Positions 567-18,734 of a DNA stretch of 32,899 bases are shown in pieces; positions within the stretch are counted from its first letter, which is position 1, and each line of letters starts with the position of its first letter. The stretch spans positions 1 through 32,899 of the forward strand of contig CAYTQE010000001.1 of assembly GCA_964439985.1 (NCBI GenBank), given 5' to 3'. The position numbers and the translations under genes are program-made. This DNA is from an uncultured Muribaculaceae bacterium. Lineage in GTDB: Bacteria > Bacillota_I > Bacilli_A > RF39 > UBA660. The notes beneath the pieces were generated by a model. It saw nothing but the letters and a program-made list of their open reading frames with translations, made no database searches and was not told the DNA's origin.

Positions 567-1660
567 AATTCTTGAAATTCATTTTGAAAATAATCATCGG
601 TCATACCCGCAATGTAATCTATAACTTTTCTTACATCATTTGTTTCTTTTAAATATTTATCCGTTTGTTTATTTAAAAAATCTCTATATATTTTATATTT
701 AATTAAATTATGATTAACGATATATAAATTTTGTTTAAAAACTGTATTAAACATATTTTCATAATGTTTTAAATCTTGTTTAGTATTAGCTTTATAATAA
801 ATATTTCGGTAGTTAAATTTCTTTAAATCAACTATTGTTTTAAACATTTCATCACTTAACTTGATATAATTTTTATCAAAGCTATTTTCTATTATGTCTA
901 ATATAATATTATTAACTATCTGTCTATTAGAGTTACCAATTATTTTGGTTATTTCATTAGGTAGGTTATTTATATCAAAAACACCTATTTTAACAGCATC
1001 TTCAATGTCTCTACCTAGATATGCTATCATATCACTAATTCTTACAACACAACCTTCTAATGTCATAGGAACAAGTTTAGAAGCATGTTCTTCATTGTGA
1101 TAACATTGATTATAATCATCTAAAAATTCTTCTTTTGTTTTCTTTTTAGGAAAGTACTTTTTCATAGCAAATTCTCCATTATGACAAAGAATTCCATCAA
1201 GAACCTGAATACTTATATTTTTATTTTCGATGTCCATTAAAGTTCTAAGGCTTTGAACATTATGCATAAAGAATCCTTCATTATTTTCTAGACTTAATTT
1301 ATTTAAAAATTCTTCTCCAGTATGACCAAAAGGAATATGACCTAAATCATGACCAAGAGCTATAGCTTCAATTAAATCTTCGTTTAAAGATAAAGCTCTT
1401 CCAATTGTTCTAGCTATTTTACTAACTAATTGAACATGAACCATTCTTTTAGTAATATGATCATTTTCATTATTGGAAAATACTTGAGTTTTATCCATAT
1501 ATCTTGTATATGAATCACTATGAATTATTCGATCTATATCTCTAAAAAAATTTGGTCTTATATCTGGTGTAAAATCATCTAATCTAATAGACTCATTATC
1601 ATAAGTAGCATATTTGCTATACAAAGTTTCTCTTTTTAACATTATTTCTTTTATATCCAT
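545..1660 (-). CDS. dGTP triphosphohydrolase-like HD-domain phosphohydrolase
   Basis: 371-aa ORF with the HD motif HVQLVSKIARTIG...ALGHDLGHIPFGHTGEEFL, characteristic of the Dgt/dNTPase-like family. Its start overlaps the upstream gene's stop (TAATG). Confidence 0.8.
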   Translation of the reverse strand: MDIKEIMLKRETLYSKYATYDNESIRLDDFTPDIRPNFFRDIDRIIHSDSYTRYMDKTQVFSNNENDHITKRMVHVQLVSKIARTIGRALSLNEDLIEAIALGHDLGHIPFGHTGEEFLNKLSLENNEGFFMHNVQSLRTLMDIENKNISIQVLDGILCHNGEFAMKKYFPKKKTKEEFLDDYNQCYHNEEHASKLVPMTLEGCVVRISDMIAYLGRDIEDAVKIGVFDINNLPNEITKIIGNSNRQIVNNIILDIIENSFDKNYIKLSDEMFKTIVDLKKFNYRNIYYKANTKQDLKHYENMFNTVFKQNLYIVNHNLIKYKIYRDFLNKQTDKYLKETNDVRKVIDYIAGMTDDYFQNEFQELKNIKFD

Positions 1661-3567
1661 TATTCACCTAATACATAACTATAATAGTTAGTTTCTAATA
1701 TGTTTTTAGAAATAACAAATTTGTTGTAAACTAAGTTATTTATTATTTCTATATAATTATCGGGAATATCATTTTTAAATGAAGTAAAAGTATTTTTAGT
1801 AGCGTTATATTTTCCAAAATTAGTTATCCAGCTACGATCATTAAATATAATAACCCCTTCATTATCAGATAAAATATCAGTTCCCATTAAAAGTCTTGAA
1901 TCAAATTTTATTCCAAATAAATTAAGAACAGTAGGTAATATATCTAAACTACTTGAATATTTATTTATTTCTATTACATCACTCATTTGATTGTTCCAGA
2001 TTATTAAATGATTTTTATGGATATCTAATTTTTCATCTTCGATTTCCATAACTTCTTTTATTTCACTATTTTTTAATCCATATGGATAATGATCTGTACT
2101 AATAACTATGACCGTATCATCAAGTATTCCTTTTTCAGTTAGTTTCTCTATTAATGATTCAAGGGCTTTATCTAATTCAACTTGAGAAGCAATATAAGCC
2201 TTTATTGGGGTACTAAATGGTAGATCATTAACAATCTCTTTGTTTTTATAAGCCATATTATTACCACCAAAGTTATATTCAAGATGACCACTTATACTCA
2301 TATAATAAGTCATAAATTGATTATTATCACTATATAAATCAAAAGTAGCATTAATCATTTCTAAATCACTTTGTGGCCATGGTTTACAGTTCATTATTTT
2401 TTCTAATCCATTACCACATCCCATAAAATTGTAACCCATATTAGGTAATGATTTATGACGATCATAATATTTATAAGATCCATTATGATAAGCATTAGTG
2501 GTATAACCTAGTTTAGAAAATATATTACCATATGTATAAGGTAAATAATTATTGCTAGATCTAGACATACTCCAAACACTTTCTTTGGGAAGTAGACCAG
2601 TTAAATTAACATATTCTCCATCACTAGTACTAACATAATAAACAGGACTATAAAAATTATTGAATTTAAAACCATTATTAACAAGTTTATATAATGTTGG
2701 TGTTACATCAATATTAACCGCGATGGGACTAAATGCTTCTGCAGTAATATAGATTAAGTTTTTACCTTCAAAGTATCCAGTATAGTCATTTTTATTAGAA
2801 GGAGCTGTGTTATTTATATATTGATGAATATTTTTAATTGTATTATTATTTTCGTTTTCTATTAAATAATTAAAGCCAATATCTAGTTTATTATATTCAA
2901 TCTCTTTAATAATTTCTTCTACCTGATTATCGATTAAAACACTTTCTTCAAAATTAGATAGGATTCTAAAAATATCAAGTCGCATCGTAGTCATTAAACC
3001 TAAACTCTTGGCAGTTTGATTTGGAACATGTTTATTAAAATAAATATTTTTAACTGAATAAAGATGATCTTTTGCTAGAAATAAAGAAATAATACCAATT
3101 GTATAAAAAATAAACATAAAAATAGTTTTAGATGAAAGTAGTCGGTAATTAGTATCTAAAGTAATTATTTTCTTTCTAAATATAATTGTTAATAAACTTG
3201 GTATTATTAACAATATAATTGGAATTATATTATTAATAATTACTGAAAATATTTGACTAAAATATTCAAAAACTTGTCCACCATTAAATAAAGAATAAAT
3301 AGATATTATATTTCCATAAAATAAATAATTAACAAATTGCGCTATAAAAAGAATTGTTAAAAATACTATTATTCCTATAAAAAATATTTTATTATATTTA
3401 TGTTTTAAAAAGCTCGTTATTAAATCTATAAAAACACTTACAAATAAAGTAAATATTATTAAATATATAAAGTCTTTAATTAAAAAAGATTTAAAAGTAA
3501 ATAGATGATATATAGTTTCTAAATATAATAAAATTATAAAAGATAATTTAAATTTTTGCTGTTTCAT
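1660..3567 (-). CDS. LTA synthase (LtaS)-family membrane sulfatase/phosphoglycerol transferase
   Basis: Multi-TM hydrophobic N-terminus followed by an extracellular sulfatase-like domain (YITAEAFSP..., VIVISTDHYPYG). I prefer the second ATG at 3567 (MKQQKF...) because GAGGT lies 6 nt upstream; the track ORF starts at 3582. Confidence 0.78.
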   Translation of the reverse strand: MKQQKFKLSFIILLYLETIYHLFTFKSFLIKDFIYLIIFTLFVSVFIDLITSFLKHKYNKIFFIGIIVFLTILFIAQFVNYLFYGNIISIYSLFNGGQVFEYFSQIFSVIINNIIPIILLIIPSLLTIIFRKKIITLDTNYRLLSSKTIFMFIFYTIGIISLFLAKDHLYSVKNIYFNKHVPNQTAKSLGLMTTMRLDIFRILSNFEESVLIDNQVEEIIKEIEYNKLDIGFNYLIENENNNTIKNIHQYINNTAPSNKNDYTGYFEGKNLIYITAEAFSPIAVNIDVTPTLYKLVNNGFKFNNFYSPVYYVSTSDGEYVNLTGLLPKESVWSMSRSSNNYLPYTYGNIFSKLGYTTNAYHNGSYKYYDRHKSLPNMGYNFMGCGNGLEKIMNCKPWPQSDLEMINATFDLYSDNNQFMTYYMSISGHLEYNFGGNNMAYKNKEIVNDLPFSTPIKAYIASQVELDKALESLIEKLTEKGILDDTVIVISTDHYPYGLKNSEIKEVMEIEDEKLDIHKNHLIIWNNQMSDVIEINKYSSSLDILPTVLNLFGIKFDSRLLMGTDILSDNEGVIIFNDRSWITNFGKYNATKNTFTSFKNDIPDNYIEIINNLVYNKFVISKNILETNYYSYVLGE

Positions 3568-3700
3568 ACTAATACCTCGCATTAAAATTATATCATATAA
3601 TTTTATAAAAAAGGAGTAATTATTAGACCTAAATAATGGTAATAAATAAACTAATCAATATAAATTTTAAATCATACTTTACTATAGGAGCTGAAGTTAA

Positions 3701-5602
3701 GTGATAAAATGGAGTTTATCAATGATAGTTAAAAATGAAGCAGAAAATATAAGTAAATGCTTAGATTCAGTTAAAGATTTATTTGATGAAATAATAATAG
3801 TTGATACTGGGTCAACAGATAATACAAAAAGCACATTAATAAAATATACTAATAATATTTATGATTTTAATTGGATAGATGATTTTAGTGCAGCTAGAAA
3901 CTATGCATTTTCATTATGCACTAAAGATTATATTATGTGGCTTGATGCAGATGATATAATAAAAAAAGAAGATTTAATAAAGTTAAAAAGACTTAAAAAA
4001 AACATGAATTATGAGTATGATATTATAATGATGAAATATAATATCGCTTTTGATGAAATGGGTAATTCTTCTTTTTCTTATTATCGAGAAAGATTATTAA
4101 AAAATGAAAACAAATATATATGGAAAGATAGAGTCCATGAATACATTGAACTAAAAGGTAATATAAAGAAGGAAGATATTTCAATTACTCATGATAAAAA
4201 AGAGCAAAATATCAGTACCCGTAATTTAAATATTTATCAAAAAATGGAAGATAATAAAGAAATATTTACTCCCAGAAATTTATATTATTATGGGCGAGAA
4301 TTATATGACCATCAACAATATGATTTAACAATTTTAAAATTAACTGAATTTTTGAATAGTAAAAAAGGTTGGGTTGAGGATAACATCAATGCTTGTTATT
4401 TATTATCAAATTCTTATTATAATATATTATTAGAAGAAATGGCGTTAAATTTATTGTTTAAAACTTTTGAATACGATATACCTAGAAAGAAAAGCTGTTG
4501 TTTAATTGGTAATTATTTTTTAAAAAAAGAAAAATATTTAATTGCCATTTATTGGTATAAATTATCTTTGAATTTATCTAAAAATCAAAATATTAGTTTT
4601 TATGAACCTGATTATGATTATTTTATACCATATATAAATTTATGCGTTTGCTATGATAAGCTAGATAATAAACAAGAATCATTAAAATATCATCTTTTAT
4701 CTAAAAAAATAAAACCTGAAAATGAATTAGTTAAATATAATATAAAATATCGTAAATCATTAGGAATGATTTTTCAGCAATCTTCAACTCGTACTAGAGT
4801 TTCATTTGAAACAGCAATGGAACAATTAGGAGGACATGCTCAATATTTAGCTCCTGGTCAAATCCAATTAGGAGATCATGAATCAGTAACAGATACAGCT
4901 AAAGTATTAGGGCGGATGCTGGATATTATCATGGCTCGAGTAGAAAGACATAAATCAGTTATTGAACTTGCGGAAGAAGCTGGAATACCTGTTATTAACG
5001 CGATGAGTGATTATAATCATCCAACGCAAGAAGTTGGAGATATGACAACTATAATTGAACATTTACCTGCAGGTAAAAAATTAGAGGATTTAAAGATTGT
5101 TTTTGTTGGGGATGCAACTCAAGTATGTACATCTCTTGCAATGATAACAACTAAACTTGGTGCTAATTTTGTTCAATTTGGTCCAGAAGGATATCAAATA
5201 AAACCAGATGTAGCTAAACTTTGTTTAGACAATTGTGAAAAATCTGGCGGGAGCTTTTTAGTAACAGATGATTTTGATGTAGCAATTAAAAATGCAGACT
5301 TTATATATACAGATGTTTGGTACGGATTATATGAAGCAGAATTATCTTATGACGAAAGAATGGCTATATTCTATCCAAAATATCAAGTTGATATGGATAT
5401 GATGAAAGCGGCAAACCCAACTGTAAAATTTATGCATTGTTTACCTGCAAATAGAGGCGAAGAAGTTTCTGCTGAAGTAATTGATTCTGACTATTCAATA
5501 GTATTTGATGAAGCAGAAAATCGTTTAACTTCAATAAGAGCACTTTTAGTTTATTTGATGGGTAAAAAAGACGAAACTATAGAAATAATAGAAAGAAGTT
5601 AA
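3701..5602 (+). CDS. In-frame fusion ORF: family-2 glycosyltransferase with TPR-like C-terminal region, joined to N-terminally truncated putrescine carbamoyltransferase
   Basis: Residues 1 to about 350 carry GT2 motifs ([37 protein letters not shown]) and then helical TPR-like repeats. From nt ~4754 ([54 protein letters not shown]) the sequence matches putrescine carbamoyltransferase as I recall the Enterococcus enzyme. It lacks the ~40-45 residues that normally precede the STRTR motif. GTG start at 3701 with AGGAG upstream; an in-frame ATG at 3722 is an alternative. Confidence 0.75.
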
Positions 5603-5610
5603 GGAATTCT

Positions 5611-6993
5611 ATGAAAAAGAAAAAATTTAGATTAATTGATGCGATTTTAGCAACAGTATGTATTACATTAGTTGCTGAATCGGTTACACCAACAGCAGCA
5701 ATTGGTAATTCACAATATTTTTGGTGGATATTCTTACTAGCAGCTTTTTGTTTACCTTATGGCATGATTTCTGCTGAATTAGGGTCAACATTTCAAAGTG
5801 AAGGTGGAATGTATGATTGGATAAAAAGAGCATTTGGTGCTAAATGGGCATCGCGTGTTGCTTGGAACTACTGGATTAATTTCCCATTATGGATTGCATC
5901 ACTTGCAGTTGCTATTACTGATGTTATAGCTGGAATATTTAGTATTGAATTAAGTATATTTATGTTACTTATTATCCAATTAGGGTATACTTGGTTAGTT
6001 AGTTTTCTAGGTACTCAAAGAATCGGAGAAAGTAAATATATTGTTAATATTGGTACATTCTTCAAAATGGCATTTATGCTTAGTTTAGGACTATTAGGTA
6101 TTTATGTTTATATTAAAACTGGACATAGTGCTAACCCTGTTGAATCAGTAGTGGATTTACTACCAAGTTTTGACTTAGCAGGATTATCATTCTTATCAGT
6201 AATAATATTTAACTTCCTAGGTTTTGAAGTTGTAGCAACATTTACTGATGATATGGAAAATCCTAAAAAAGAAATACCAAAAGCATTAATAATTGGTGGA
6301 ACTTTAATGGCATTGTTTTATATTTTACCAGCAACTGGTGTAAATATAGCAATTGCATCATCAGAAGCTGAAGCTGCTGGAATTACGGAAAGTTTTGCAA
6401 TTCTATTAGGTAATATTGGCGTAAGCCCAGACTTTATTAGAACAATTGTAATTATAGTAGGTTTAATGTTTATTTATACAATGGTTGCAAATATTGTATC
6501 ATGGTCATTTGGAGTAAACTCTGTTGCTAAATTTAGTGCAGATGATGGAGGATTACCAAAATTATTCTCACAAACTAATAAAGCTGGAGTACCACATATG
6601 GCATCAATCTTAAATGGGGTTGTAGCAACTATTATAATAATTATTGGAGTAATTTTAGGAGAAGTAAGTGCTAGTGCTAGTAATTTATTCTGGACATTCT
6701 TCTCACTTAGTTTAGTTACTTTACTAATAAGTTACATACCATTATTTCTAGCATTTAAAAAATTAAGAAAAATTGACAATACTCCTAGAGTATATAAAAT
6801 ATCAGGCGGAAACTTTATAATTAATTTATTAACTTATATTCCAATGATATTACTAATTTTAGGAATAATATTTACAATGTTTGGTGACTTTACATCTGAA
6901 TATATAAATGCGAATTTACCATTAATTATTGGGGTAATATTATCATTTATAATTCAGGAAGTATTAGCATCAAGAGTTAAGGAGAAAAAATGA
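5611..6993 (+). CDS. aguD: APC-family amino acid permease, agmatine:putrescine antiporter
   Basis: 460-aa polytopic membrane protein with about 12 hydrophobic segments. It sits between the carbamoyltransferase and agmatine deiminase genes, as in known AgDI operons. Confidence 0.8.
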
Positions 6994-8090
6994 AGAAACT
7001 AGATACAACACCTAAAGCTGATGGCTTTAGAATGCCAGGTGAATTTGAAAAACATCGTGGCACTTATATTATTTGGCCAGAAAGACCAGATAACTGGAGA
7101 AATGGTGGAAAACCAGCTCAAAAAGCATTTGTTGATGTAGCATCTGTTATTGGAAAATATGAACCATGTACGATGTTAGTAAGTGCAGCTCAATATGATA
7201 ATGCTAGAGGAATGCTTCCTGAATATGTACGCGTTATTGAAATGAGTAATGATGATTCATGGATGCGCGATGTTGGAGCATCATTCCTTATTAATGATAA
7301 GGGAGTACTTAGAGCTTGTGACTGGTCATTTAATGCTTGGGGAGGATTAGTAGATGGATTATACTTCCCATGGGCAGAAGATGATAAAATTGCAGGGAAA
7401 ATGTGTGAACTTGAAGGCGCAGATAGATATCGTTTAGATGATTTTGTTGCTGAAGGTGGAAACATCCATGTTGATGGTGATGGAACTGCAATGGTTACTG
7501 AAGAATGTATGATGTCAGAAGGAAGAAATCCACATTTAACTAAAGAAGAACAAGAACAAATACTAAAAGATTATCTAAATGTAGAAAAAGTCTTTTGGAT
7601 ACCAAAAGGTATTTATAATGATGAAACTAATGGACATGTTGATAATATCGTAAACTTTGTTAAACCAGGAGAAGTAGTTCTTGCTTGGACAGATAATGAA
7701 AAAGATCCACAATATGCAATTAGTAAAGAAGTTCTAGAATATTTAGAAAATCAAACTGATGCTAAAGGTCGTAAATTAACTATTCATAAGTTACATGTAC
7801 CTAATCCGGTACTTATTACTAAAGAAGAAAGTGAAGGAGTAGATGCAATAGATGGTACTCTTCCTCGTGAAGAAGGAGACAGACTATCAGCATCATACGC
7901 TAACTACTATGTTGGTAATGGTTTTGTTGCACTACCAGTTTTCAATGATCCACATGATAAAGACGCTATTGAACTTATGAAAAAACTTTATCCAGATCGC
8001 ACTGTAGAACCAATCTTCGCACGTGAAATTTTACTTGGTGGTGGTAATATCCATTGTATTACTCAACAAGTACCAGATCCAAGAGGATAA
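6990..8090 (+). CDS. aguA: Agmatine deiminase
   Basis: 366 aa with [42 protein letters not shown] and C-terminal [11 protein letters not shown] (catalytic Cys motif). ATGA overlap with aguD. Confidence 0.93.
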
Positions 8091-8995
8091 TGAAAAGAAT
8101 TGTTATAGCACTTGGTGGCAATGCTTTAGGTAATACTTATTTAGAACAATTAGAATTAATAAAAAAAGCAGCAAAGGATTTATCAGAAATATTAAAAGAT
8201 AATGAAGTTATTATTACCCACGGCAATGGACCACAAGTTGGTATGATAACAAAAGCATTTACAAATAATAATATAGAAATGCCACTAGATATTTGTACCG
8301 CTATGAGTCAAGGTTATATTGGTTTTCATCTTCAAAAAAAGATTAAAGAAGTTTTAGAAGAACTTAATATAAAAAGAGATGTAATTTCAGTAGTAAGTGA
8401 AGTAATAGTAGATGAAGAAGATCCTTCATTTAAAAACCCAACTAAACCTATTGGCAAATTTTACACTGAAGAAGAAGCAAATATCTTAAGTAAACAGAAT
8501 AATGAAATATATAAAGAAGATGCTGGTAGAGGATATAGGAAAGTAGTAGCTTCTCCCAAACCTTTATCAATTAAAAATATTTGTTCTATCGAAGCTCTAC
8601 TTAAAAATAATAGTATTGTTATAGCTGGTGGTGGTGGCGGTATACCTGTACTTACTAATCCAGACTCAACAAAAGTAGAAGCTGTTATTGATAAAGATGC
8701 AACTTCAGCATTAATTGCTAAAGAATTAAATGCGGACTTATTAATAATATTAACTGCAGTAGATCAAGTAATGTTAAATTTCAATACTGAAAATGAAATT
8801 AAACTTAATGAAATTACAGTAGAAGAAATTAAAACCCATATCAAAAATGATGAATTTAAAAGTGGTAGTATGCTTCCTAAAATTGAAGCAGCACTTAACT
8901 TTACTGAAAAAACTGGTAATGAAACTATCATTACAAGTTTAGAGAACATTAACAATATTCATCTTCGTAAAGATATAACCATTATTTGTAAATAA
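8090..8995 (+). CDS. arcC: Carbamate kinase
   Basis: [14 protein letters not shown]-terminus, THGNGPQVG and DKDATSALIA motifs. The start overlaps the aguA stop (TAATG). The track ORF starting at 8054 is a 5' over-extension. Confidence 0.9.
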   Translation: MKRIVIALGGNALGNTYLEQLELIKKAAKDLSEILKDNEVIITHGNGPQVGMITKAFTNNNIEMPLDICTAMSQGYIGFHLQKKIKEVLEELNIKRDVISVVSEVIVDEEDPSFKNPTKPIGKFYTEEEANILSKQNNEIYKEDAGRGYRKVVASPKPLSIKNICSIEALLKNNSIVIAGGGGGIPVLTNPDSTKVEAVIDKDATSALIAKELNADLLIILTAVDQVMLNFNTENEIKLNEITVEEIKTHIKNDEFKSGSMLPKIEAALNFTEKTGNETIITSLENINNIHLRKDITIICK

Positions 8996-9072: not shown

Positions 9073-9966
9073 TTAAAATTTTCGATTAACTTTTTTCTTT
9101 TGAATATAGTCAAATACTGAATATTGTGCTTTAATTATATTTTTATTAGAACACAATTCATCTAACGCTTCTAGAGGTAATTCATTTGGAGCACATGAAT
9201 ATAAGTTATTAAAGTAATCTAGTAACTCATTACTAACACCTAAATCTCTTAAATACTGTAAGTATGAATAAAATTGACATAGTGATAAATTATTAATTTG
9301 ATGGTGTGAAATAGTATTTAGAATCATCATTATAAAACAAAAATATTCACTATCTAAATTTGGTATATAGAAACCATCATCATTTCTTTGATATTTATAT
9401 TCAAAATTAGATATATTTTTATTAGTAGATAAATATTTAATAGGTGATGCTACATTATTAGCAATCTTACATCCATCTAAATCAACAACCCGTATTTTTT
9501 TACTATCTTTATCATATATAAAATTACCTTCATGAATATCTGATAAATAAAAATCATTATTAAAAGGTTTTGTATTATGAACTACATTTAATATTTCGCC
9601 GACTTCTTTTAAAAATCTAATCTTTTCAGATAAAGGCACTTCAAAACTGTTTAGTATAATTTGCAAGTTTTCACTATTAATATATGGCATTGAAAATCCA
9701 GCAACTTTTTTACCAACTATAACTAATTTTTCTGGCATTACTAACTCATCGATATTCATGTTATCTTTTTCATTAATCAAAGAATTTATTGTTAAGAGTT
9801 TATTACCAAAGTATACTCCTTCATCAATATAAAATATTTTTAGTAGTTTTCTCGTTATTTTGTTATCAAGTATAAATAACTTACATTCAGTATTAAAAAT
9901 ATCTTTATTTAATTCATAACTTTCAAGAGTCTTAAATTTAATTTTACTAATATTTAATACTTCCAC
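9073..9966 (-). CDS. Protein-kinase-like/APH-fold protein of unknown specificity
   Basis: 297 aa. LSDIHEGNFIYDKDSKKIRVVDLDG resembles a kinase catalytic loop (HxxN) followed by a DxD/DFG-like metal site. GTG start with GGGGA upstream. I recognised no other domain. Confidence 0.55.
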   Translation of the reverse strand: MEVLNISKIKFKTLESYELNKDIFNTECKLFILDNKITRKLLKIFYIDEGVYFGNKLLTINSLINEKDNMNIDELVMPEKLVIVGKKVAGFSMPYINSENLQIILNSFEVPLSEKIRFLKEVGEILNVVHNTKPFNNDFYLSDIHEGNFIYDKDSKKIRVVDLDGCKIANNVASPIKYLSTNKNISNFEYKYQRNDDGFYIPNLDSEYFCFIMMILNTISHHQINNLSLCQFYSYLQYLRDLGVSNELLDYFNNLYSCAPNELPLEALDELCSNKNIIKAQYSVFDYIQKKKVNRKF

Positions 9967-10018: not shown

Positions 10019-10080
10019 TAGCTAAAGATATTTTCCTAAATAAAAGATAATTAAGAAAATCAGTTAATATTTAATAAAAT

Positions 10081-10269
10081 AAAAAGAATTACTTTGAATA
10101 ATTCTTTTCAAATAGAGTAATTAATTGATAAATAATAAATGAAATAATTAATATAAGCATTATTCCAGTCATTACTAAAGTTAAGTTAAATACTTGAGTT
10201 CCATAAAGTATTAGATAACCAATACCAGCTTTACTAACTAAGAATTATCCCATAATAACCCCGATTAAT
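10081..10269. repeat. Direct repeat, left copy (DR-L): duplicated terminator hairpin plus 3' end of the ABC permease gene
   Basis: Aligns without gaps to 12352-12540 (offset 2271 nt) with 183 of 189 identities. Mismatches are at 10097, 10098, 10151, 10206, 10239 and 10247. Confidence 0.95.
10089..10269 (-). pseudogene. Remnant of the last ~59 codons of a NitT/TauT ABC permease gene, with an in-frame stop
   Basis: In the permease frame the copy encodes the same C-terminus as 12360-12540, except that Glu becomes TAA at 10245-10247 and Ala becomes Ser at 10095-10097. No upstream part of the gene is present. Confidence 0.85.
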
Positions 10270-10360
10270 AGCATATAGGGAAAAAAGAGTGTTCAAAAGA
10301 TTAGTTTGCAAAGTTAGATAATCGTTAAATTGAAAGTTATAAGCAAGTATGAAAGTTTGT

Positions 10361-10389
10361 TTGACAAAAGTACGCATTTTTGATATTTT
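10361..10389 (+). promoter_or_regulatory. Strong sigma-A-type promoter of the peptide/radical-SAM cassette
   Basis: TTGACA (10361-10366), 17-nt spacer ending in TGa, then TATTTT (10384-10389). AAGAGGA ribosome-binding site lies before the ATG at 10411. Confidence 0.6.
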
Positions 10390-10410
10390 AAATGAAAGAA
10401 AAGAGGATAT

Positions 10411-10626
10411 ATGGAAAATATAGAAAAAATGGATTTACAGTCTTTAAAATTATTAAAAGTATATTTATCACAATCTTCAACTAAAAATGAGTTTCTTGGT
10501 TTTGGGCATGATAATGGGCATGATAATAGTGGAGGTCACCCAGATTATCATAATGATTCTCATGATAATACTCCAGGAATGAAATTTAATGTAAGAAATG
10601 AAAATAGCATTTCAATCAAAAGATGA
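10411..10626 (+). CDS. Putative RiPP precursor peptide, Cys-free, His/Asp/Asn repeat core
   Basis: 71 aa: helical leader-like N-terminus (MENIEKMDLQSLKLLKVYLSQSSTKNEFLGFG), core GHDNGHDNSGGHPDYHNDSHDN (nt 10507-10569), then a 18-aa tail. Its stop overlaps the radical SAM start (ATGA at 10623). Confidence 0.7.
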   Translation: MENIEKMDLQSLKLLKVYLSQSSTKNEFLGFGHDNGHDNSGGHPDYHNDSHDNTPGMKFNVRNENSISIKR

Positions 10627-11714
10627 GACAGATTAACACACTTATTAAGCCGACTCATGAATGTAATATGAGATGTAAATATTGTTTTCATGAACAATAT
10701 GGTTATAAAAATTCTATATTAGATATTGATAAATTAAAAAAATATTTAAATTTGCTATCTATTGAATATGATTTTATAAATATAATTTGGCATGGTGGAG
10801 AACCGCTGATGGTTCCGTTAGATTATTATGAGGAAATATATGACCATTGTGAGAAATTAAATTCAAGATTTTTATTTACTATTCAGACCAATGGCTCACT
10901 AATTACGCAAAAGAATATAGATTTTTTTAAAGAAAGACAAACAAATTTTGGGCTTTCTTTTGATGGATTAAAAAATGAATATACTCGTTCTCATACTGAA
11001 GAGATAAAGTTTAATATAAAATTATTACAAAAAAACAATTTTAATCCAGGAGCAATACTTGTTGTGAATAATAGTAATGTGTCTGATTTAATTGATGAAT
11101 ACAAATATTTTGATTCATTAGGATTGAGTATGAAACTTAATCCTATGTTTAGTGATGGGGCTGCAAAATTGCACCCAGAGTTAGCCTTAGACCCTGATGA
11201 ATATATCGAAAAATTCGTAATTTTTTTTAAATACTGGTCAACTGATTCAAATGGTAAGATAAATGTTGCAACTTGTAATGAACTAACTAATTTAATAATA
11301 AATGAACACTCAGGAGTATGTACATTTAATTCTTGTTTAACTAAATGGTTATGTTTAGATTCTTCTGCAAACATATACCCTTGTGATAGATTGTGTTCTT
11401 CTGAATATCTCTTAGGAAATGTTGAGAACGTTTCTTCAATTAAAAATCTTTTTATTAGTGAAAATTTTATAGAATTATTAAAATCTAGTATAAATCGTAG
11501 GGAAAATTGTATTAAGATATGTGATTTTTATAAAAATTGTTACTCTGGTTGTAATGCTAATGCTTTTTTAGGTGTTAGTGATGATTACGAAAACGGAGTT
11601 TCTTGTTATATTCAAAAAGGCATTCTTGAAGGTATTAAAGATTATGTACTTAATAGTTTAGAAAACCATAAAACTTTAAATCCTACTTATGAAAAAATAT
11701 TGAAAAAGAAATAA
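10623..11714 (+). CDS. Radical SAM enzyme with C-terminal SPASM-type auxiliary cluster domain (peptide maturase-like)
   Basis: CNMRCKYC (CX3CX2C) at residues 14-21, GGEPLM SAM-binding motif, and a Cys-rich C-terminus (CTFNSC...C...YPCDRLC ... CIKICDFYKNCYSGC) matching the SPASM/anSME-like pattern. Confidence 0.9.
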   Translation: MRQINTLIKPTHECNMRCKYCFHEQYGYKNSILDIDKLKKYLNLLSIEYDFINIIWHGGEPLMVPLDYYEEIYDHCEKLNSRFLFTIQTNGSLITQKNIDFFKERQTNFGLSFDGLKNEYTRSHTEEIKFNIKLLQKNNFNPGAILVVNNSNVSDLIDEYKYFDSLGLSMKLNPMFSDGAAKLHPELALDPDEYIEKFVIFFKYWSTDSNGKINVATCNELTNLIINEHSGVCTFNSCLTKWLCLDSSANIYPCDRLCSSEYLLGNVENVSSIKNLFISENFIELLKSSINRRENCIKICDFYKNCYSGCNANAFLGVSDDYENGVSCYIQKGILEGIKDYVLNSLENHKTLNPTYEKILKKK

Positions 11715-11757
11715 TATCTTACGTTGAGGATACTTGATTTTATTTAGGAGATAGAAT

Positions 11758-12318
11758 ATGAAATATGTTTATCATGGAAGTCAAAAACAAAATTTAAAAA
11801 AAATTACTAAAAGAAAAAGCACTCATGGACAAGAGTGGGTTTATGCTACTAGTTCCAAAGTAATAGCTACGATTTTTATTAGCAATAAAGCAAGTGATTT
11901 AAATTATTATCTTGGTGGTAAAGGTACAAATGAATCACCAATTATTTTAGTTGAAAGAAAAATAGACATGTTTAAAAATATATTCAATCTTTCAGGATCT
12001 TTATATAGTTTAAGCAGTAAAAATTTCTTATCAAATAAAACAGGTTGGTCTGCTGAAGTAATTAGTGAATATGATGAAGATGTTATTGAAGAAGAGCATA
12101 TAGGCAATGTTTACGATAAACTTGTAGATTTAAATAATAAAAAAGAGTTAAAATTATATTTATATCCAAATAGACCTAATTTTCTTCCATTAGATAATAG
12201 TGATCTTATTCCTAAGGTTAAAAAATGGGAAAAAGCAGGTTTTGATATAGAAATTTTTTTAGAAATTTATCCTGAATTAAAAGAAAAATATAATTCATAT
12301 ACAAATGACGAGATATAA
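11758..12318 (+). CDS. Hypothetical 186-aa protein, third gene of the cassette
   Basis: AGGAGA ribosome-binding site 7 nt upstream, same strand, 43 nt after the radical SAM gene. No signal peptide or TM segment. N-terminal YHGS...EWVYATSS; I do not recognise a family. Confidence 0.6.
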   Translation: MKYVYHGSQKQNLKKITKRKSTHGQEWVYATSSKVIATIFISNKASDLNYYLGGKGTNESPIILVERKIDMFKNIFNLSGSLYSLSSKNFLSNKTGWSAEVISEYDEDVIEEEHIGNVYDKLVDLNNKKELKLYLYPNRPNFLPLDNSDLIPKVKKWEKAGFDIEIFLEIYPELKEKYNSYTNDEI

Positions 12319-12351
12319 AGCGTGATTATGTATTTAATATTGTGATAAACC

Positions 12352-12380
12352 AAAAAGAATTACTTTGCGTAATTCTTTTC
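12352..12380. terminator. Bidirectional intrinsic terminator shared by the cassette (+) and the ABC operon (-)
   Basis: An 11-bp stem (12353-12363 aaaagaattac pairs with 12369-12379 gtaattctttt) with loop tttgc and A and T tracts on both sides. A 10-bp version is kept in DR-L at 10082-10108. Confidence 0.6.
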
Positions 12381-12540
12381 AAATAGAGTAATTAATTGAT
12401 AAATAATAAATGAAATAATTAGTATAAGCATTATTCCAGTCATTACTAAAGTTAAGTTAAATACTTGAGTTCCATATAGTATTAGATAACCAATACCAGC
12501 TTTACTAACCAAGAATTCTCCCATAATAACCCCGATTAAT
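12352..12540. repeat. Direct repeat, right copy (DR-R): terminator hairpin plus the intact 3' end of the ABC permease gene
   Basis: Partner of 10081-10269 (183 of 189 identities). It is contiguous with the full-length permease ORF. Confidence 0.95.
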
Positions 12541-13118
12541 GACATTGAAATATTTAATTTTAAACTTGATATAATAGTCTCTTTGTTGTGTGGTAATACA
12601 AGTTTAGTTAATATTTGATAATTGGTAGCTTTAAAAGATTTAAATAATTTTATTTTATAAGGATCGGTATTAATTAATCCATTATATATTGAAACTAATG
12701 TTACTATTGTATTGATAAGTAGGCTCATAACTATAATTGACTTCACATTAGCGCCTAACCAAATTATTAATAAAGGACCTAATGAAACTTTTGGTAAACT
12801 ATTGATTAATGTTAGAAAAGGATCACAAATTTTTTTTAAAGTAGGAAATACATAAAACAGTAGTGCTATTGTAAAACCGATTAAAGTACCAAGTCCAAAA
12901 GATATGAAGATTTCTTTTAAAGTTACCCATATATGAATCCATAAATTATTATTAATATATAAATCATATAAACACTTAATTATTTTAGATGGACTTGAAA
13001 AGATAAAAGAATTTATAATTCCATATTTACTTAATAATTCCCAGGTCAATATAAATTGACAAGTAATGAATATTTGGGTTATTATTATAAATATTTTTTT
13101 TCTCTTAATATTCTTCAA
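12360..13118 (-). CDS. ABC transporter permease, NitT/TauT (SsuC-like) family
   Basis: 252 aa with about 6 TM segments and an EAA-like loop region (LINSLPKVSLGPLLIIWLG). TTG start. Lies in an operon with the ATPase and binding protein. Confidence 0.82.
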   Translation of the reverse strand: MKNIKRKKIFIIITQIFITCQFILTWELLSKYGIINSFIFSSPSKIIKCLYDLYINNNLWIHIWVTLKEIFISFGLGTLIGFTIALLFYVFPTLKKICDPFLTLINSLPKVSLGPLLIIWLGANVKSIIVMSLLINTIVTLVSIYNGLINTDPYKIKLFKSFKATNYQILTKLVLPHNKETIISSLKLNISMSLIGVIMGEFLVSKAGIGYLILYGTQVFNLTLVMTGIMLILIISFIIYQLITLFEKNYAK

Positions 13119-16742: not shown

Positions 16743-18734
16743 ATGAAGAAAATATTTTTGTTAATTATAGTATTATTATCTTTTTTTACTATCAAAGAAG
16801 TTAATGCAGATACTCCTTATATTAAAGGAACTATTATGCCAAGTAAAAACACTAATGTATATTCTCAACCAAATAGTAATTCTAGTTTATTGAGAAATGA
16901 TGAAGGATATATAATAAATTTAAATTATCCAGAAACTTTTGAGATTTTAAATGTTGAAAATGGCTATTACCAAATTTATTTTCAATACAGTAGTTTTTAT
17001 CATACTGGATATATAAAAGTAGATAATAACTTAGTAAAAAGAGAAGATTATATTATTAAAGATTCTATAATTGATCAGTTAAAAGCTAAAGGTTTTGATG
17101 ATACTTACGCATATCCTTTAGCGGTTTTAAAAACTATAAATCCAAGTTGGAAATTTAATTTATATAATACTGATTTAGATTGGAATTATGTTATAGAACA
17201 AGAGGCCTATCCAGTTGAAAAAAATTTGATTAGTGGCTCAAATACATCTTTACGAAGTACGGAAGATGAAGCTTATTATGGTAATGGAGTTTGGAAAACA
17301 TTTGATAGTGGTTCTTCTTGGTTTGCAGCATCAAAACAAACAATTAAATATTATATGGATCCTAGAAACTTTTTTAACGAAGGTCATATTTTTATGTTTG
17401 AAAAACTTTCTTATGATACTAATCTAGATTATGTTCCAGCTATAAATAGTGTTTTAAATGGTACTTTTATGGCTACAAACCAAGCTTTTAATTGCTTAGA
17501 AGGATTTCCTGTTTGTTATAATAATCCTGATGGTAAAAGATATATGTCATATACAGATGTCTTTAAAGAAGCTGGTTTAACAAATGGAGTAAGTCCAGTC
17601 CATCTAGCAAGTAGAGTTAGAATAGAACAAGGGACTAATGGTTCAGTTTTAAGTAGTGGAGAAGGATGGAACAATCAAAAACTAGGATATTATAATTTCT
17701 TTAATTTTGGAGCTAGTGGTAATGGTGATGATGCCATTATTACTAATGGATTAAATTATGCTTATAATAAAGGTTGGGATAGTCCATACTCATCAATTGT
17801 AGGTGGAGCATCATCCCTAACTAATGGTTATATTGCTGGTGGTCAAGACACTTTATATTTTCAGAAATTTGATGTAATTAAGCCAGCGTCTTTTTATTAT
17901 CAGTACCAGCAAAATATAAGAGCACCTTATTATGAGGGTTATACTACATATTCATCATATTATAAAAATAATATAGTTGGTTCTAATTTCACATTTAATA
18001 TTCCAATATATTCTAATATGCCTACATTTACAAACTTATCAGTAAGTGGTAATGAAGATGCAACACTTAGTTCATTAAATATATCAGGATGTCATCTAAT
18101 GCCTTCATTTACTCCTAGTGCTTTAAATTATAATTGCTCTGTTACAAAAGATACTGCTAGTGTAAATATAAATGCTAAAGCTACCAATCCTAATTCAATA
18201 GTTACAGGTTACGGTACTCAAAATTTACCAAATGATGAAAATATAATTAACATTATAGTAACTGCAGCAGCAGGTAATACCAAAACTTATAAAGTAGTAA
18301 TAAATAAAATAGATTCTTCGCAGTTTACCCCAGATGAGATTTTATCCAGAGTCGGAATAAATAATAATTCTGGAGTATTAAGTGGTAGTAATATTATAAC
18401 AACAGGAGATAATATTATATCACTGATAAAAAACAATGTTCCATCAGCAAATGTAACAATAAGTAATACAAATAATATTGGTACTGGAACGACACTTACA
18501 ATCAATAACAATGGTTCTAAAGCATATAATCTACTAATGTATGGTGATACAGATGGAGATGGTGATATTACAATCTTAGATCTTCTTAGAACTCAAAAAC
18601 ATATATTAGGTGTTAATAAATTAACGAATGTATTTGAAAAATCAATCGATGTTAATAAAGATGGAGAAGTTAATATTTTAGATTTATTACTAATCCAGAA
18701 ACATATTTTAGAAGTTAGTCAAATAACTCAATAG
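16743..18734 (+). CDS. Secreted peptidoglycan hydrolase: SH3b-like, GH73 N-acetylglucosaminidase-like and cadherin-like beta-sandwich domains, with a C-terminal type-I dockerin
   Basis: Signal peptide (MKKIFLLIIVLLSFFTIKEVNA). YMDPRNFFNEGHIFMFEKLSY, HLASRVRIEQG and YYNFFNFGASG are glucosaminidase-family motifs. LSSLNISG..LMPSFTPSALNYNCSV is cadherin-like. The duplicated Ca-binding dockerin segments are YGDTDGDGDITILDLLRTQKHILG and DVNKDGEVNILDLLLIQKHIL. Confidence 0.8.
   Translation: MKKIFLLIIVLLSFFTIKEVNADTPYIKGTIMPSKNTNVYSQPNSNSSLLRNDEGYIINLNYPETFEILNVENGYYQIYFQYSSFYHTGYIKVDNNLVKREDYIIKDSIIDQLKAKGFDDTYAYPLAVLKTINPSWKFNLYNTDLDWNYVIEQEAYPVEKNLISGSNTSLRSTEDEAYYGNGVWKTFDSGSSWFAASKQTIKYYMDPRNFFNEGHIFMFEKLSYDTNLDYVPAINSVLNGTFMATNQAFNCLEGFPVCYNNPDGKRYMSYTDVFKEAGLTNGVSPVHLASRVRIEQGTNGSVLSSGEGWNNQKLGYYNFFNFGASGNGDDAIITNGLNYAYNKGWDSPYSSIVGGASSLTNGYIAGGQDTLYFQKFDVIKPASFYYQYQQNIRAPYYEGYTTYSSYYKNNIVGSNFTFNIPIYSNMPTFTNLSVSGNEDATLSSLNISGCHLMPSFTPSALNYNCSVTKDTASVNINAKATNPNSIVTGYGTQNLPNDENIINIIVTAAAGNTKTYKVVINKIDSSQFTPDEILSRVGINNNSGVLSGSNIITTGDNIISLIKNNVPSANVTISNTNNIGTGTTLTINNNGSKAYNLLMYGDTDGDGDITILDLLRTQKHILGVNKLTNVFEKSIDVNKDGEVNILDLLLIQKHILEVSQITQ

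What the first reader, a model, noticed from the sequence alone, without database searches (positions are those of the whole stretch)
10361..12318. Candidate new RiPP system: Cys-free H-D-N repeat peptide, radical SAM/SPASM enzyme and an unknown partner
Seen directly:
- A near-consensus promoter (TTGACA-N17-TGaTATTTT) drives a 71-aa ORF whose stop overlaps the start of a radical SAM gene (ATGA), the classic precursor-maturase arrangement.
- The enzyme has CX3CX2C at residues 14-21, so there is no room for an N-terminal RRE/PqqD-like domain. It has GGEPLM and a SPASM-like Cys-rich C-terminus.
- The peptide has a helical leader-like N-terminus and a 21-residue core, GHDNGHDNSGGHPDYHNDSHDN: H-D-N three times, plus H-P-D, Y-H-N and H-N-D.
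- The peptide contains no Cys and no Trp. That excludes sactipeptide/ranthipeptide thioethers, NxxC-type links and streptide-type Lys-Trp links.

Inference: repeated aromatic-X-(Asn/Asp) triplets are the kind of motif cross-linked by three-residue cyclophane-forming radical SAM enzymes (triceptides). They also recall the His-Xaa-Ser repeat (Hxs) systems. An H-D-N repeat core with a single SPASM enzyme and this 186-aa partner is not an architecture I recognise. No protease or exporter is encoded, so the third gene may supply recognition or processing, or the product may stay intracellular, for example as a metal-binding His/Asp peptide.
Basis: partly seen in the sequence, partly recalled or inferred. 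Interest (0 to 1): 0.85.

Follow-up and report, generated by a model that had tools for sequence, protein, structure and literature searches.

The report
Histidine-repeat peptide cassette with ADP-ribosyltransferase
A compact, strain-variable three-gene cassette in gut Bacilli encodes a histidine-repeat peptide, a radical SAM enzyme predicted to staple it into small rings, and a relative of MicD, so far the only enzyme known to attach ADP-ribose to such a peptide, so it is probably a second, much larger family of ADP-ribosylated ribosomal peptides.

Summary
The 71-aa ORF (10411-10626) is a conserved precursor with 126 sequence clusters. In 67 distinct cores, the residue two places after each His is Asn or Asp in 308 of 311 cases, while the residue between them varies. 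That is the aromatic-X-X3 pattern of three-residue cyclophane ("triceptide") peptides.

The enzyme (10623-11714) is a radical SAM/SPASM protein without an N-terminal recognition domain. It reaches no curated family cut-off. Its best match is the dynobactin maturase DynA (161 bits against a cut-off of 450).

The "unknown" 186-aa partner (11758-12318) is a homologue of MicD (36% identity, E 6e-30). MicD ADP-ribosylates a cyclophane histidine in minviopeptin (PNAS 2026). The catalytic His and Glu and the aromatic pair are conserved.

The three genes travel together in 17 of 17 close loci, in unrelated chromosomal contexts. In five of the seven genomes examined (the window plus six loci) the cassette is flanked by direct repeats of local sequence. 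In a related species a contig whose flanks are 99.8% and 99.1% identical lacks the cassette.

Most likely the enzyme forms His-to-Asn/Asp cross-links and the partner then ADP-ribosylates histidine. The chemistry is inferred, not shown. I rate it a new variant of a known kind, of moderately high interest.

The parts
10074..10274 (.). Left copy of the 201-nt direct repeat. It is a pseudo-copy of the last ~186 nt of the ABC permease gene plus its AT-rich hairpin.
   Evidence: It is 95% identical to 12345-12545. The minus-strand translation of the right copy is the permease C-terminus.
10361..10389 (+). Promoter-like site: TTGACA, 17 nt, TG-n-TATTTT.
   Evidence: It is the best site in the region, 10 of 12 matches plus TG. 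A similar TTGACA / extended -10 lies upstream of orthologous peptides in L001-L004. Function is not shown.
10401..10407 (+). Shine-Dalgarno-like AAGAGGA just upstream of the peptide ATG.
   Evidence: Read from the sequence. AGAGGA or GGAGG lies upstream of the orthologous starts.
10411..10626 (+). Precursor peptide gene, 71 aa. Leader is residues 1-32 with a conserved Y18 / Q21 motif, core is residues 33-53, then TPG and a 15-aa follower.
   Evidence: ORF. There are 126 homologous clusters, including a 100% identical one, P0430. Alignment.
10507..10569 (+). Core HDNGHDNSGGHPDYHNDSHDN: five His-X-(Asn/Asp) motifs, the predicted ring sites.
   Evidence: His+2 is N or D in 308 of 311 cases across 67 unique cores, while His+1 varies. 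11 of 21 codon columns show synonymous changes only.
10623..11714 (+). Radical SAM/SPASM peptide maturase, 363 aa, with no RRE domain. Its start overlaps the peptide stop (ATGA).
   Evidence: PF04055, E 2e-16. Best NCBIfam matches are DynA 161 bits and anSME 144 bits, all below cut-off. The closest solved structure is anSME 4K37, E 2e-20.
10662..10685 (+). CX3CX2C radical SAM cluster motif, residues 14-21.
   Evidence: C14, C18 and C21 are invariant in 42 homologues.
11319..11606 (+). SPASM-type auxiliary-cluster cysteines: C233, C238, C244, C254, C258, C296, C300, C306, C310, C328.
   Evidence: These are invariant or at least 90% conserved. The Pfam SPASM model hits relatives.
11758..12318 (+). 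MicD-like ADP-ribosyltransferase, 186 aa. Predicted catalytic residues are H6 (11773-11775) and E100 (12055-12057); the aromatic pair is Y29 / F40.
   Evidence: 36% identical to MicD over 148 aa, E 6e-30. The family profile hits MicD at E 5.5e-28. AF2 model pLDDT 92. The top three PDB fold hits are Arr rifampin ADP-ribosyltransferases.
12345..12545 (.). Right copy of the 201-nt direct repeat. It is the true 3' end of the intact permease gene (12360-13118, minus strand) and includes the palindrome at 12353-12379.

Best explanation
This is a self-contained, strain-variable three-gene RiPP cassette with its own promoter. The proposed pathway has four steps.

1. The 71-aa precursor is translated. 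Its helical leader (conserved L-Y-x-x-Y-L-x-Q-S/A) presents the core to the radical SAM/SPASM enzyme.
2. Inferred: the enzyme abstracts a hydrogen from the beta-carbon of the Asn or Asp at position 3 of each His-X-(Asn/Asp) motif. It joins that carbon to the imidazole, most likely at C2, of the His at position 1. This gives four to five three-residue cyclophane rings, at -2 Da each.
3. Inferred from homology to MicD: the 186-aa ADP-ribosyltransferase uses NAD+ to attach ADP-ribose (+541 Da) to a ring nitrogen of one or more cross-linked histidines.
4. Unknown: removal of the leader and follower and any export must rely on host functions, because the cassette encodes neither a protease nor a transporter.

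Shown by computation: the gene structure, conservation and selection on the core, the motif rule, the superfamily placement of the enzyme, homology of the partner to MicD with its catalytic residues, and the cassette's autonomy and presence/absence polymorphism. Not shown: any of the chemistry, or the biological role.
For: **Precursor**
- 126 clusters.
- H-X-[N/D] rule: 308 of 311.
- Purifying selection on the core.
- Multi-core precursors exist in which each core usually has its own leader-like segment.

**Enzyme**
- It has the radical SAM and SPASM cysteines and no RRE domain.
- Its nearest curated families are cross-linking maturases and anSME: DynA, TIGR04083, AmcB, GrrM/OscB, YhhB.
- His-C2 to C-beta rings on H-X-X motifs are established chemistry for HaaB, YhhB, HtkB and MicB (PMC11499958, PMC12912966).
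- More distant relatives of the enzyme (30-37% identity) sit next to Tyr/His-Ser-Asp repeat peptides.

**Partner**
- P0351 is WP_166091376.1 of Mucilaginibacter inviolabilis.
- It lies in a locus whose 59-aa peptide ends in PYSKIHASGGFTKDL, the published MicA core. It is therefore MicD.
- The window protein aligns to it at 36% identity, E 6e-30. H6, Y29, F40 and E100 align with MicD H7, Y30, F41 and E101; H7A and E101A abolish MicD activity (PMC12912966).
- The top fold hits are Arr ADP-ribosyltransferases.

**Linkage**
- The partner lies directly downstream of the enzyme in 17 of 17 loci of the >=55% identity clade.
- The chromosomal contexts are unrelated.
Against: - No experiment exists for this family.
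- The enzyme is only 22% identical to MicB. It scores far below the cut-offs of every characterised cyclophane synthase model: YhhB 73 against 445, GrrM/OscB 84 against 310. MicB itself scores 359 on YhhB. The ring chemistry is therefore extrapolated from the substrate motif, not from orthology.
- No His-to-Asn/Asp cyclophane has been characterised.
- The best-scoring model, DynA, comes from an enzyme that (from my own knowledge of the dynobactin literature) also makes a His N-to-C link. A C-N link is therefore possible.
- The fold match to Arr is weak in TM-score (0.30-0.40), and there is no PDB sequence hit.
- MicD-family proteins also occur without any radical SAM neighbour.
- Closely related His-peptide/enzyme pairs in Clostridia lack the transferase. 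ADP-ribosylation is thus an add-on and not intrinsic to the peptide.
Confidence: 0.65

Rival explanations
1. Same RiPP logic with an ADP-ribosyl tailoring step, but the radical SAM enzyme installs a different modification on the H-X-N/D motifs. Candidates are a His-nitrogen to C-beta (C-N) link of the kind made by DynA, a C-O link, or beta-carbon oxidation or epimerisation of Asn/Asp without ring closure.
For: - DynA is the best-scoring curated model for the window enzyme and for its relatives.
- The clade is distinct from all characterised three-residue cyclophane synthases.
- Radical SAM cyclophane synthases as a group make C-C, C-N and C-O links (PMC11499958).
Against: - All four characterised His-first three-residue motifs (HAA, HNR, HTK, HAS) give His-C2 to C-beta C-C bonds (PMC11499958, PMC12912966).
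- MicD ADP-ribosylates a ring nitrogen, so a nitrogen must remain free.
- The strict conservation of both position 1 and position 3, with a free position 2, fits a 1-3 link.
Confidence: 0.2
2. The 186-aa transferase does not act on the peptide. It modifies another target, for example a small-molecule antibiotic as Arr does, a host or competitor protein, or it acts in producer self-protection. It would then be merely co-inherited with the peptide and enzyme pair.
For: - The family is broad: 707 representative clusters.
- Members occur away from radical SAM genes. One sits beside two aminoglycoside-phosphotransferase-like genes and an ADP-ribosylglycohydrolase; others are fused to P-loop kinase-like domains.
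- The top fold hits are the resistance enzyme Arr.
- The minviopeptin authors themselves raise a self-protection role (PMC12912966).
Against: - Linkage is 17 of 17, with gene spacing of 2-44 nt, inside a 2-kb unit that is gained or lost as a block.
- The only characterised member in such a context, MicD, acts on the cross-linked peptide and not on the unmodified one (PMC12912966).
- The core is unusually rich in the residue MicD targets.
Confidence: 0.08
3. This is not a RiPP pathway. The enzyme would be an anSME-like maturase of some protein, or part of an anti-phage defence cassette. The small ORF would be a regulatory or metal-binding peptide, or not a substrate at all.
For: - anSME is the second-best model and the closest solved structure.
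- The cassette behaves like accessory DNA.
- Generic viperin-core matches appear in PADLOC.
Against: - The enzyme scores 144 bits against the anSME cut-off of 349, and there is no sulfatase nearby.
- The PADLOC matches cover only the generic radical SAM core (residues 11-134), and the partner has no PADLOC hit.
- The peptide gene is translationally coupled to the enzyme gene in every locus. Its core follows a substrate-motif rule.
Confidence: 0.04

Closest known systems
Minviopeptin (mic) cluster of Mucilaginibacter inviolabilis: MicA, MicB, MicC, MicD, MicT (PMC12912966)
   Same: - Both have a small precursor with His-first three-residue motifs.
- Both have an adjacent radical SAM/SPASM enzyme.
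- Both have a small (~21 kDa) MicD-family ADP-ribosyltransferase: 36% identity, with the catalytic His and Glu and the aromatic pair conserved.
   Different: - The radical SAM enzymes are not orthologous: 22% identity, and MicB sits in the YhhB/FxsB neighbourhood while this enzyme sits in the DynA/anSME neighbourhood.
- There is no MicC alpha-ketoglutarate enzyme and no MicT peptidase-transporter.
- The core has five His motifs, all ending in Asn or Asp, where MicA has one His motif among Tyr and Phe motifs.
- This precursor has a C-terminal follower.
- The hosts are gut Bacilli/'Tenericutes' rather than a Bacteroidota isolate.
- This is a 2-kb cassette that varies between strains.
His-containing triceptide synthases HaaB (HAA), YhhB (HNR) and HtkB (HTK) (PMC11499958)
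   Same: - The motif logic is the same: an aromatic residue at position 1, a free position 2, and a cross-linked position 3.
- The enzymes are radical SAM/SPASM proteins without an RRE domain.
- Precursors carry several motifs.
   Different: - This enzyme is far below the YhhB cut-off: 73 bits against 445.
- Asn/Asp at position 3 of a His motif has not been characterised.
- Those systems have no ADP-ribosyltransferase.
Dynobactin maturase DynA (NF041298)
   Same: - It is the best-scoring curated family: 161 bits, aligned over residues 7-325.
- It is compact, about 360 aa, with no RRE domain.
   Different: - The score is well below the cut-off of 450.
- The precursor is unrelated: WNSNVHSYRF (PMC10125368) against the H-X-N/D repeats here.
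- The host and genomic context are different.
Rifampin ADP-ribosyltransferase Arr (PDB 2HW2, 9IAF, 9IBA)
   Same: It gives the top three fold matches to the partner model, with probability 0.96 for the top two and 0.51 for the third. It is also a small, single-domain transferase.
   Different: - Identity is only 11-12% and TM-score 0.27-0.40, with no detectable sequence match.
- Arr acts on a small-molecule antibiotic, not a peptide.
His-Xaa-Ser (Hxs) system
   Same: A His-repeat peptide sits next to radical SAM/SPASM enzymes.
   Different: - HxsB scores 52 bits against a cut-off of 370.
- There is only one radical SAM gene, and no HxsC or HxsD.
- The motif is H-x-N/D, not H-x-S.

Membership tests
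Triceptide (three-residue cyclophane) RiPP | The precursor carries aromatic1-X2-X3 motifs, with positions 1 and 3 constrained. | tested here: met
   His+2 is N or D in 308 of 311 cases across 67 unique cores, and His+1 takes 13 different residues.
Triceptide (three-residue cyclophane) RiPP | A radical SAM/SPASM maturase is encoded next to the precursor. | tested here: met
   There is an ATGA overlap, a CX3CX2C motif plus conserved SPASM cysteines, and the same gene order in every close locus.
Triceptide (three-residue cyclophane) RiPP | The maturase belongs to a characterised cyclophane-synthase family (XyeB, YhhB, FxsB, GrrM/OscB, AmcB) at that model's curated cut-off. | tested here: not met
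   AmcB 88 bits against 425, GrrM/OscB 84 against 310, YhhB 73 against 445. XyeB and FxsB are not among the best 25.
Triceptide (three-residue cyclophane) RiPP | There is an aromatic-carbon to C-beta cross-link, at -2 Da per motif. | not testable with these tools
   This needs co-expression followed by MS/MS and NMR.
MicD-family peptide ADP-ribosyltransferase | There is significant sequence similarity to MicD. | tested here: met
   BLASTP gives 36% identity over 148 aa, E 6e-30. The family profile hits MicD at E 5.5e-28. MicD's identity was verified through its locus and the MicA core.
MicD-family peptide ADP-ribosyltransferase | The catalytic His and Glu (MicD H7, E101) and the aromatic pair (Y30, F41) are conserved. 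| tested here: met
   H6, E100, Y29 and F40 align with them. Across 60 diverse family members, H6, Y29 and E100 are each at least 90% conserved; F40 is invariant only among the 43 close homologues.
MicD-family peptide ADP-ribosyltransferase | The protein has an ADP-ribosyltransferase fold. | tested here: inconclusive
   The AF2 model has pLDDT 92. The top three PDB matches are Arr, with probability 0.96 for the top two and 0.51 for the third, but TM-score is only 0.27-0.40. Pfam ART-PolyVal gives only E 0.058. There is no PDB sequence hit.
MicD-family peptide ADP-ribosyltransferase | NAD+-dependent ADP-ribosylation of a cross-linked His. | not testable with these tools
   This needs an in vitro assay.
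mic-type (minviopeptin) gene cluster | There is a MicB-orthologous radical SAM enzyme, a MicC alpha-ketoglutarate oxidative-cleavage enzyme and a MicT transporter. | tested here: not met
   The enzyme is 22% identical to MicB. The cassette holds only three genes in every locus, whereas the mic locus has five.
Dynobactin maturase DynA (NF041298) | Score at or above the curated cut-off of 450 bits. | tested here: not met
   161 bits.
Anaerobic sulfatase maturase (TIGR03942) | Score at or above 349 bits, with a sulfatase partner. | tested here: not met
   144 bits. No sulfatase is found among the neighbours.
His-Xaa-Ser system | An HxsB/HxsC radical SAM pair, HxsD and an H-x-S repeat peptide. | tested here: not met
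   HxsB scores 52 bits against 370. There is a single radical SAM gene, and the motif is H-x-N/D.

The most novel reading that the evidence does not exclude
The five-ring poly-histidine scaffold may carry several ADP-ribose units. That would make a nucleotide-decorated peptide with no dedicated exporter or protease, acting inside the cell or after lysis as an NAD-derived signal, a metal or nucleotide mimic, or an effector in the gut. The 2-kb cassette may also spread between genomes by an integrase-free mechanism that duplicates 43-201 nt of the target. Either point would go beyond anything described for minviopeptin or other triceptides.
Probability: 0.15. Interest if true: 0.85.

Novelty: new variant of a known kind. 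Interest (0 to 1): 0.62.

Why it matters
ADP-ribosylation of a ribosomal peptide was first reported in February 2026, from one soil Bacteroidota cluster. Only four orthologous clusters were found in RefSeq (PMC12912966).

- **Scale.** This locus suggests the same tailoring enzyme has been recruited by an unrelated radical SAM clade in uncultured gut Bacilli. The family has about 60 enzyme clusters, at least 277 transferase clusters and 126 precursor clusters. Some precursors occur on hundreds of metagenome contigs.
- **Testability.** The system is minimal, three genes in 2 kb, and could be tested directly. That test would ask whether His-to-Asn/Asp cyclophanes exist, whether several histidines can be ADP-ribosylated, and what such peptides do in the gut.
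- **Annotation.** The MicD family is currently invisible to Pfam and NCBIfam. This result gives an annotation for it.
- **Natural controls.** Strains with and without the cassette exist, as do relatives that lack the transferase.

Tried and rejected
- **Peptide and partner in curated libraries.** NCBIfam, Pfam and PADLOC gave nothing useful for the peptide or the partner, apart from a sub-threshold ART-PolyVal hit.
- **Partner against PDB sequences.** The family profile gave no hit even at E 10.
- **Partner fold against viral structures.** The matches were uncharacterised proteins and were uninformative.
- **Literature.** A search for 'HDN' with 'radical SAM' and 'precursor peptide' returned no papers. 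The 2022 JACS triceptide landscape paper is not held, so I could not check whether this precursor type was already listed there. The MicD paper has no supplementary files held; I recovered MicD indirectly through the residue numbering and its locus.
- **Exact look-up of the window enzyme.** It is not on record.
- **Genetic code.** I considered TGA-as-Trp and rejected it.
- **Empty site for the window's own locus.** None was found in the metagenome collection. The equivalent search for the L084 species succeeded.
- **Hidden transferase in L092.** The 213-aa gene downstream of the transferase-less cluster is not a MicD relative.
- **Anti-phage defence.** Rejected, because only generic radical SAM core matches appeared.
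- **Sulfatase maturase and Hxs readings.** Rejected on score and context.
- **RNA families.** Rfam found nothing in the window.
- **Base composition.** The cassette does not differ from its surroundings.
Full report
**1. What is in the window**

Positions 10361-12318 hold three plus-strand genes:
- a 71-aa ORF (10411-10626);
- a 363-aa radical SAM gene (10623-11714), whose ATG overlaps the peptide's TGA stop;
- a 186-aa ORF (11758-12318), 44 nt further on.

The site TTGACA-N17-TG-n-TATTTT at 10361-10389 is the best promoter-like match in the region, with 10 of 12 matches plus an extended -10. Promoter-like sites as a class are no commoner here than in shuffled sequence, because the DNA is 25% GC. 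A similar TTGACA / extended -10 pair precedes the orthologous peptide genes in L001-L004.

TGA is a real stop codon in this genome. The enzyme has C14-x3-C18-x2-C21, WHGGEPLM and a set of conserved C-terminal cysteines. The peptide has no Cys or Trp, and its core is HDNGHDNSGGHPDYHNDSHDN.

**2. The small ORF is a real, conserved precursor with a substrate-motif rule**

A scan of one genome per species found the enzyme's close relatives (58-68% identity) in uncultured gut Bacilli/'Tenericutes' genome bins from humans, reindeer and other animals.
- Every one of these loci has a small ORF immediately upstream with nearly the same core.
- A profile of ten such peptides retrieved 126 clusters, including one identical to the window peptide.
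- Across 67 distinct cores, the residue two places after a His is Asn or Asp in 308 of 311 cases. The residue between them takes 13 different identities.
- At the DNA level the core shows 548 synonymous against 307 non-synonymous pairwise codon differences, and 11 of 21 columns have no amino-acid change.
- Some precursors carry two cores. Usually each is preceded by its own leader-like LxLYxxQS segment.

The constrained positions 1 and 3 with a free position 2 form the defining pattern of three-residue cyclophane ('triceptide') substrates (PMC11499958).

**3. The enzyme**

Pfam sees only the radical SAM domain. NCBIfam gives the following, all far below their curated cut-offs:

| Model | Bits | Cut-off |
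|---|---|---|
| DynA | 161 | 450 |
| anaerobic sulfatase maturase | 144 | 349 |
| TIGR04083 | 127.5 | 300 |
| AmcB | 88 | 425 |
| GrrM/OscB | 84 | 310 |
| YhhB | 73 | 445 |
| HxsB | 52 | 370 |

- The closest solved structure is the sulfatase maturase 4K37.
- The validated triceptide synthase MicB scores 359 bits on YhhB and 341 on FxsB. It is only 22% identical to the window enzyme.
- The enzyme therefore belongs to the broad RRE-less SPASM group that contains the cyclophane synthases. Within it, it sits in an unnamed clade.
- More distant members of that clade (30-37% identity, in Clostridia and Christensenellaceae) sit beside Tyr/His-Ser-Asp repeat peptides. This again suggests aromatic-X-acidic motifs as substrates.

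**4. The 'unknown partner' is a MicD homologue**

The 186-aa protein has 277 close homologues with no name and no Pfam domain. It has only a sub-threshold ART-PolyVal match.

A full-text search turned up a PNAS 2026 paper (PMC12912966). In it, the small ADP-ribosyltransferase MicD modifies the N-tau of a histidine inside the His-Ala-Ser cyclophane of the triceptide minviopeptin. MicD acts only after the radical SAM enzyme MicB has made all the rings. H7A and E101A abolish activity, and Y30 and F41 form the stacking pair.

I then linked the window protein to MicD in these steps:
- An exhaustive profile search with the partner family found 707 representative clusters.
- One of them, P0351 (E 5.5e-28), has H7, D11, Y30, F41 and E101 at exactly the published positions.
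- P0351 is WP_166091376.1 of Mucilaginibacter inviolabilis.
- It lies in a locus with a 59-aa peptide ending PYSKIHASGGFTKDL (the published MicA core), a 426-aa radical SAM enzyme, a 275-aa protein and a C39-ABC transporter. P0351 is therefore MicD.
- The window protein aligns to it at 36% identity over 148 residues (E 6e-30). H6, Y29, F40 and E100 lie opposite the MicD residues.
- An AlphaFold2 model (pLDDT 92) has the rifampin ADP-ribosyltransferase Arr as its top three PDB matches. Probability is 0.96 for the top two and 0.51 for the third, but TM-scores are low.
- Neither Pfam nor NCBIfam has a model for this family. Eight of 60 diverse members hit DUF6886 and three hit ART-PolyVal.

**5. 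The three genes are one autonomous, strain-variable unit**

- The transferase lies directly downstream of the enzyme in all 17 loci of the >=55% identity clade. It is absent from all more distant loci.
- The cassette sits after the ribosomal-protein/rpoA/rplQ operon in one species and between a C39-like peptidase gene and uvrB in another. In the window it sits between an unannotated 297-aa gene and an NMT1-type ABC importer, next to agmatine-deiminase pathway genes.
- No protease or exporter travels with it.
- In the window it is bracketed by a 201-nt direct repeat (10074-10274 and 12345-12545, 95% identical). The repeat duplicates the 3' end of the permease gene.
- Repeats of quite different local sequence flank the cassette in four of the six related loci examined: 201, 65, 43 and 122 nt in L002, L009, L010 and L084. 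L006 and L081 have none.
- A gapped-pattern scan found a 702-kb human-gut contig (L095) that lacks the 1.9-kb cassette and has a single copy of the repeat. It is 99.8% identical to L084 over 5.7 kb upstream and 99.1% identical over 0.8 kb downstream.
- The cassette is thus gained or lost as a block between nearly identical strains. How the long duplications arise is unexplained.

**6. Most likely mechanism**

1. The leader, with invariant Y18 and Q21, delivers the core to the radical SAM/SPASM enzyme.
2. The enzyme generates a C-beta radical on each position-3 Asn or Asp and couples it to the position-1 imidazole. By analogy with HaaB, YhhB, HtkB and MicB this is at C2, giving four or five rings. 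The first, fourth and fifth motifs are essentially invariant. The second is deleted and the third replaced by Asp in some lineages.
3. The transferase then adds ADP-ribose from NAD+ to a ring nitrogen of one or more of these histidines.

Steps 2 and 3 are inference. How the peptide is trimmed or released, and what it does, is unknown.

One observation may bear on recognition. Transferase-containing cassettes encode a 10-15-residue follower after the conserved T-P-G. The transferase-less Clostridia relatives (L012, L092) end right after the core.

**7. Rivals**

- The main rival is different ring chemistry: a C-N link as made by DynA, a C-O link, or a non-cyclising modification. It is viable because the enzyme is not orthologous to any characterised cyclophane synthase.
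- A second rival is that the transferase has another target. This is suggested by family members that lie away from radical SAM genes, some beside aminoglycoside-kinase-like genes or fused to P-loop kinase-like domains. The tight block linkage argues against it.
- Sulfatase-maturase, Hxs and anti-phage-defence readings fail on scores and context.

**8. Verdict**

The novelty claim needs tempering, because the architecture of His-cyclophane peptide, radical SAM enzyme and small ADP-ribosyltransferase has one published precedent.

What is new is a large, gut-associated, uncharacterised family that combines:
- a different radical SAM clade;
- a poly-His H-X-N/D core;
- no oxidative-cleavage enzyme or transporter;
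- a compact cassette that varies between strains.

I rate it a new variant of a known kind, with interest 0.62.

Noticed in passing
window 10074-10274 and 12345-12545; L002 4364-4564 / 7119-7319 / 7369-7569; L009 4525-4589 / 6683-6747; L010 4562-4604 / 7464-7506; L084 5609-5730 / 7667-7788; L095 7371-7536: In five of the seven genomes examined (the window plus six related loci), the cassette is flanked by direct repeats of local host sequence, 43-201 nt long and 92-100% identical. The repeat sequence differs in each genome. Where the content was examined, it holds a hairpin or the end of a gene (window, L002, L009, L084). No integrase is present. A contig whose flanks are 99.8% (upstream) and 99.1% (downstream) identical to L084 has the empty site with one repeat copy. 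The mechanism that makes such long target duplications is unexplained.
   Followed up: partly
L001 4823-5014: The orthologous precursor has an in-frame TGA where the others have Leu (KEY*SQSS against KEYLSQSS). A database entry, P0452, reads it as Trp. It could be a nonsense mutation, a sequencing error, or a gene call made with genetic code 4. The neighbouring enzyme and transferase genes are intact under code 11.
   Followed up: no
L002 4631-5014, L004 1566-1949, L005 683-1030; P0392-P0399, P0426: Some precursors carry two complete cores in one ORF. In the 125-127-aa type each core follows its own leader-like segment. In the L005 type two cores share one leader.
   Followed up: partly
L014-L019 (for example L014 6101-6247, L017 4794-4973, L019 4835-4984): Radical SAM relatives at 30-37% identity in Christensenellaceae and Clostridia sit beside small ORFs rich in Tyr/His-Ser-Asp/Glu repeats, such as SHIDSHSDYSDSHTDYY and YSDYSQYSEYSEYSE. 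There is no transferase. They are probably a sister family of aromatic-X-acidic peptides.
   Followed up: partly
L092 (GCA_000686125.1, JMMA01000002.1, 3.55-Mb contig) 1535-8794; L012: A transferase-less version (48-aa precursor ending in NNPND, plus the enzyme) occurs on a 3.55-Mb contig of an NCBI genome assembly. It lies in a variable island with a microbial-type PARG, a metallophosphoesterase, an Apea-like HEPN protein and a phage-type integrase. If a cultured strain lies behind this assembly, it could serve for experiments. The PARG neighbour may be coincidental.
   Followed up: partly
P0277, P0297, P0346 (about 500 aa); L089 4001-4561; L091 2624-3202: The MicD-like family is broad, with 707 representative clusters. 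Some members are fused to a C-terminal P-loop kinase-like domain (AAA_18 / shikimate-kinase-like). One stands beside two aminoglycoside-phosphotransferase-like genes and an ADP-ribosylglycohydrolase. One lies in an archaeal context with ribosomal proteins L31e and S19e. The family has no Pfam or NCBIfam model; a few members hit DUF6886.
   Followed up: partly
L081-L083 4594-5379: In one lineage a Peptidase_C39_2-like protein is encoded about 400 nt upstream of the cassette. It is not conserved elsewhere, so it is probably not part of the system.
   Followed up: no
window 9073-9966 (-): The 297-aa ORF next to the left repeat has no Pfam or PADLOC match.
   Followed up: no
window 3701-8995 and 16743-18734: There is an agmatine deiminase gene set: a carbamoyltransferase fused to a glycosyltransferase domain, an amino-acid permease, agmatine deiminase and carbamate kinase. 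Further on, a 663-aa protein carries a type I dockerin domain, in a 25% GC genome.
   Followed up: no
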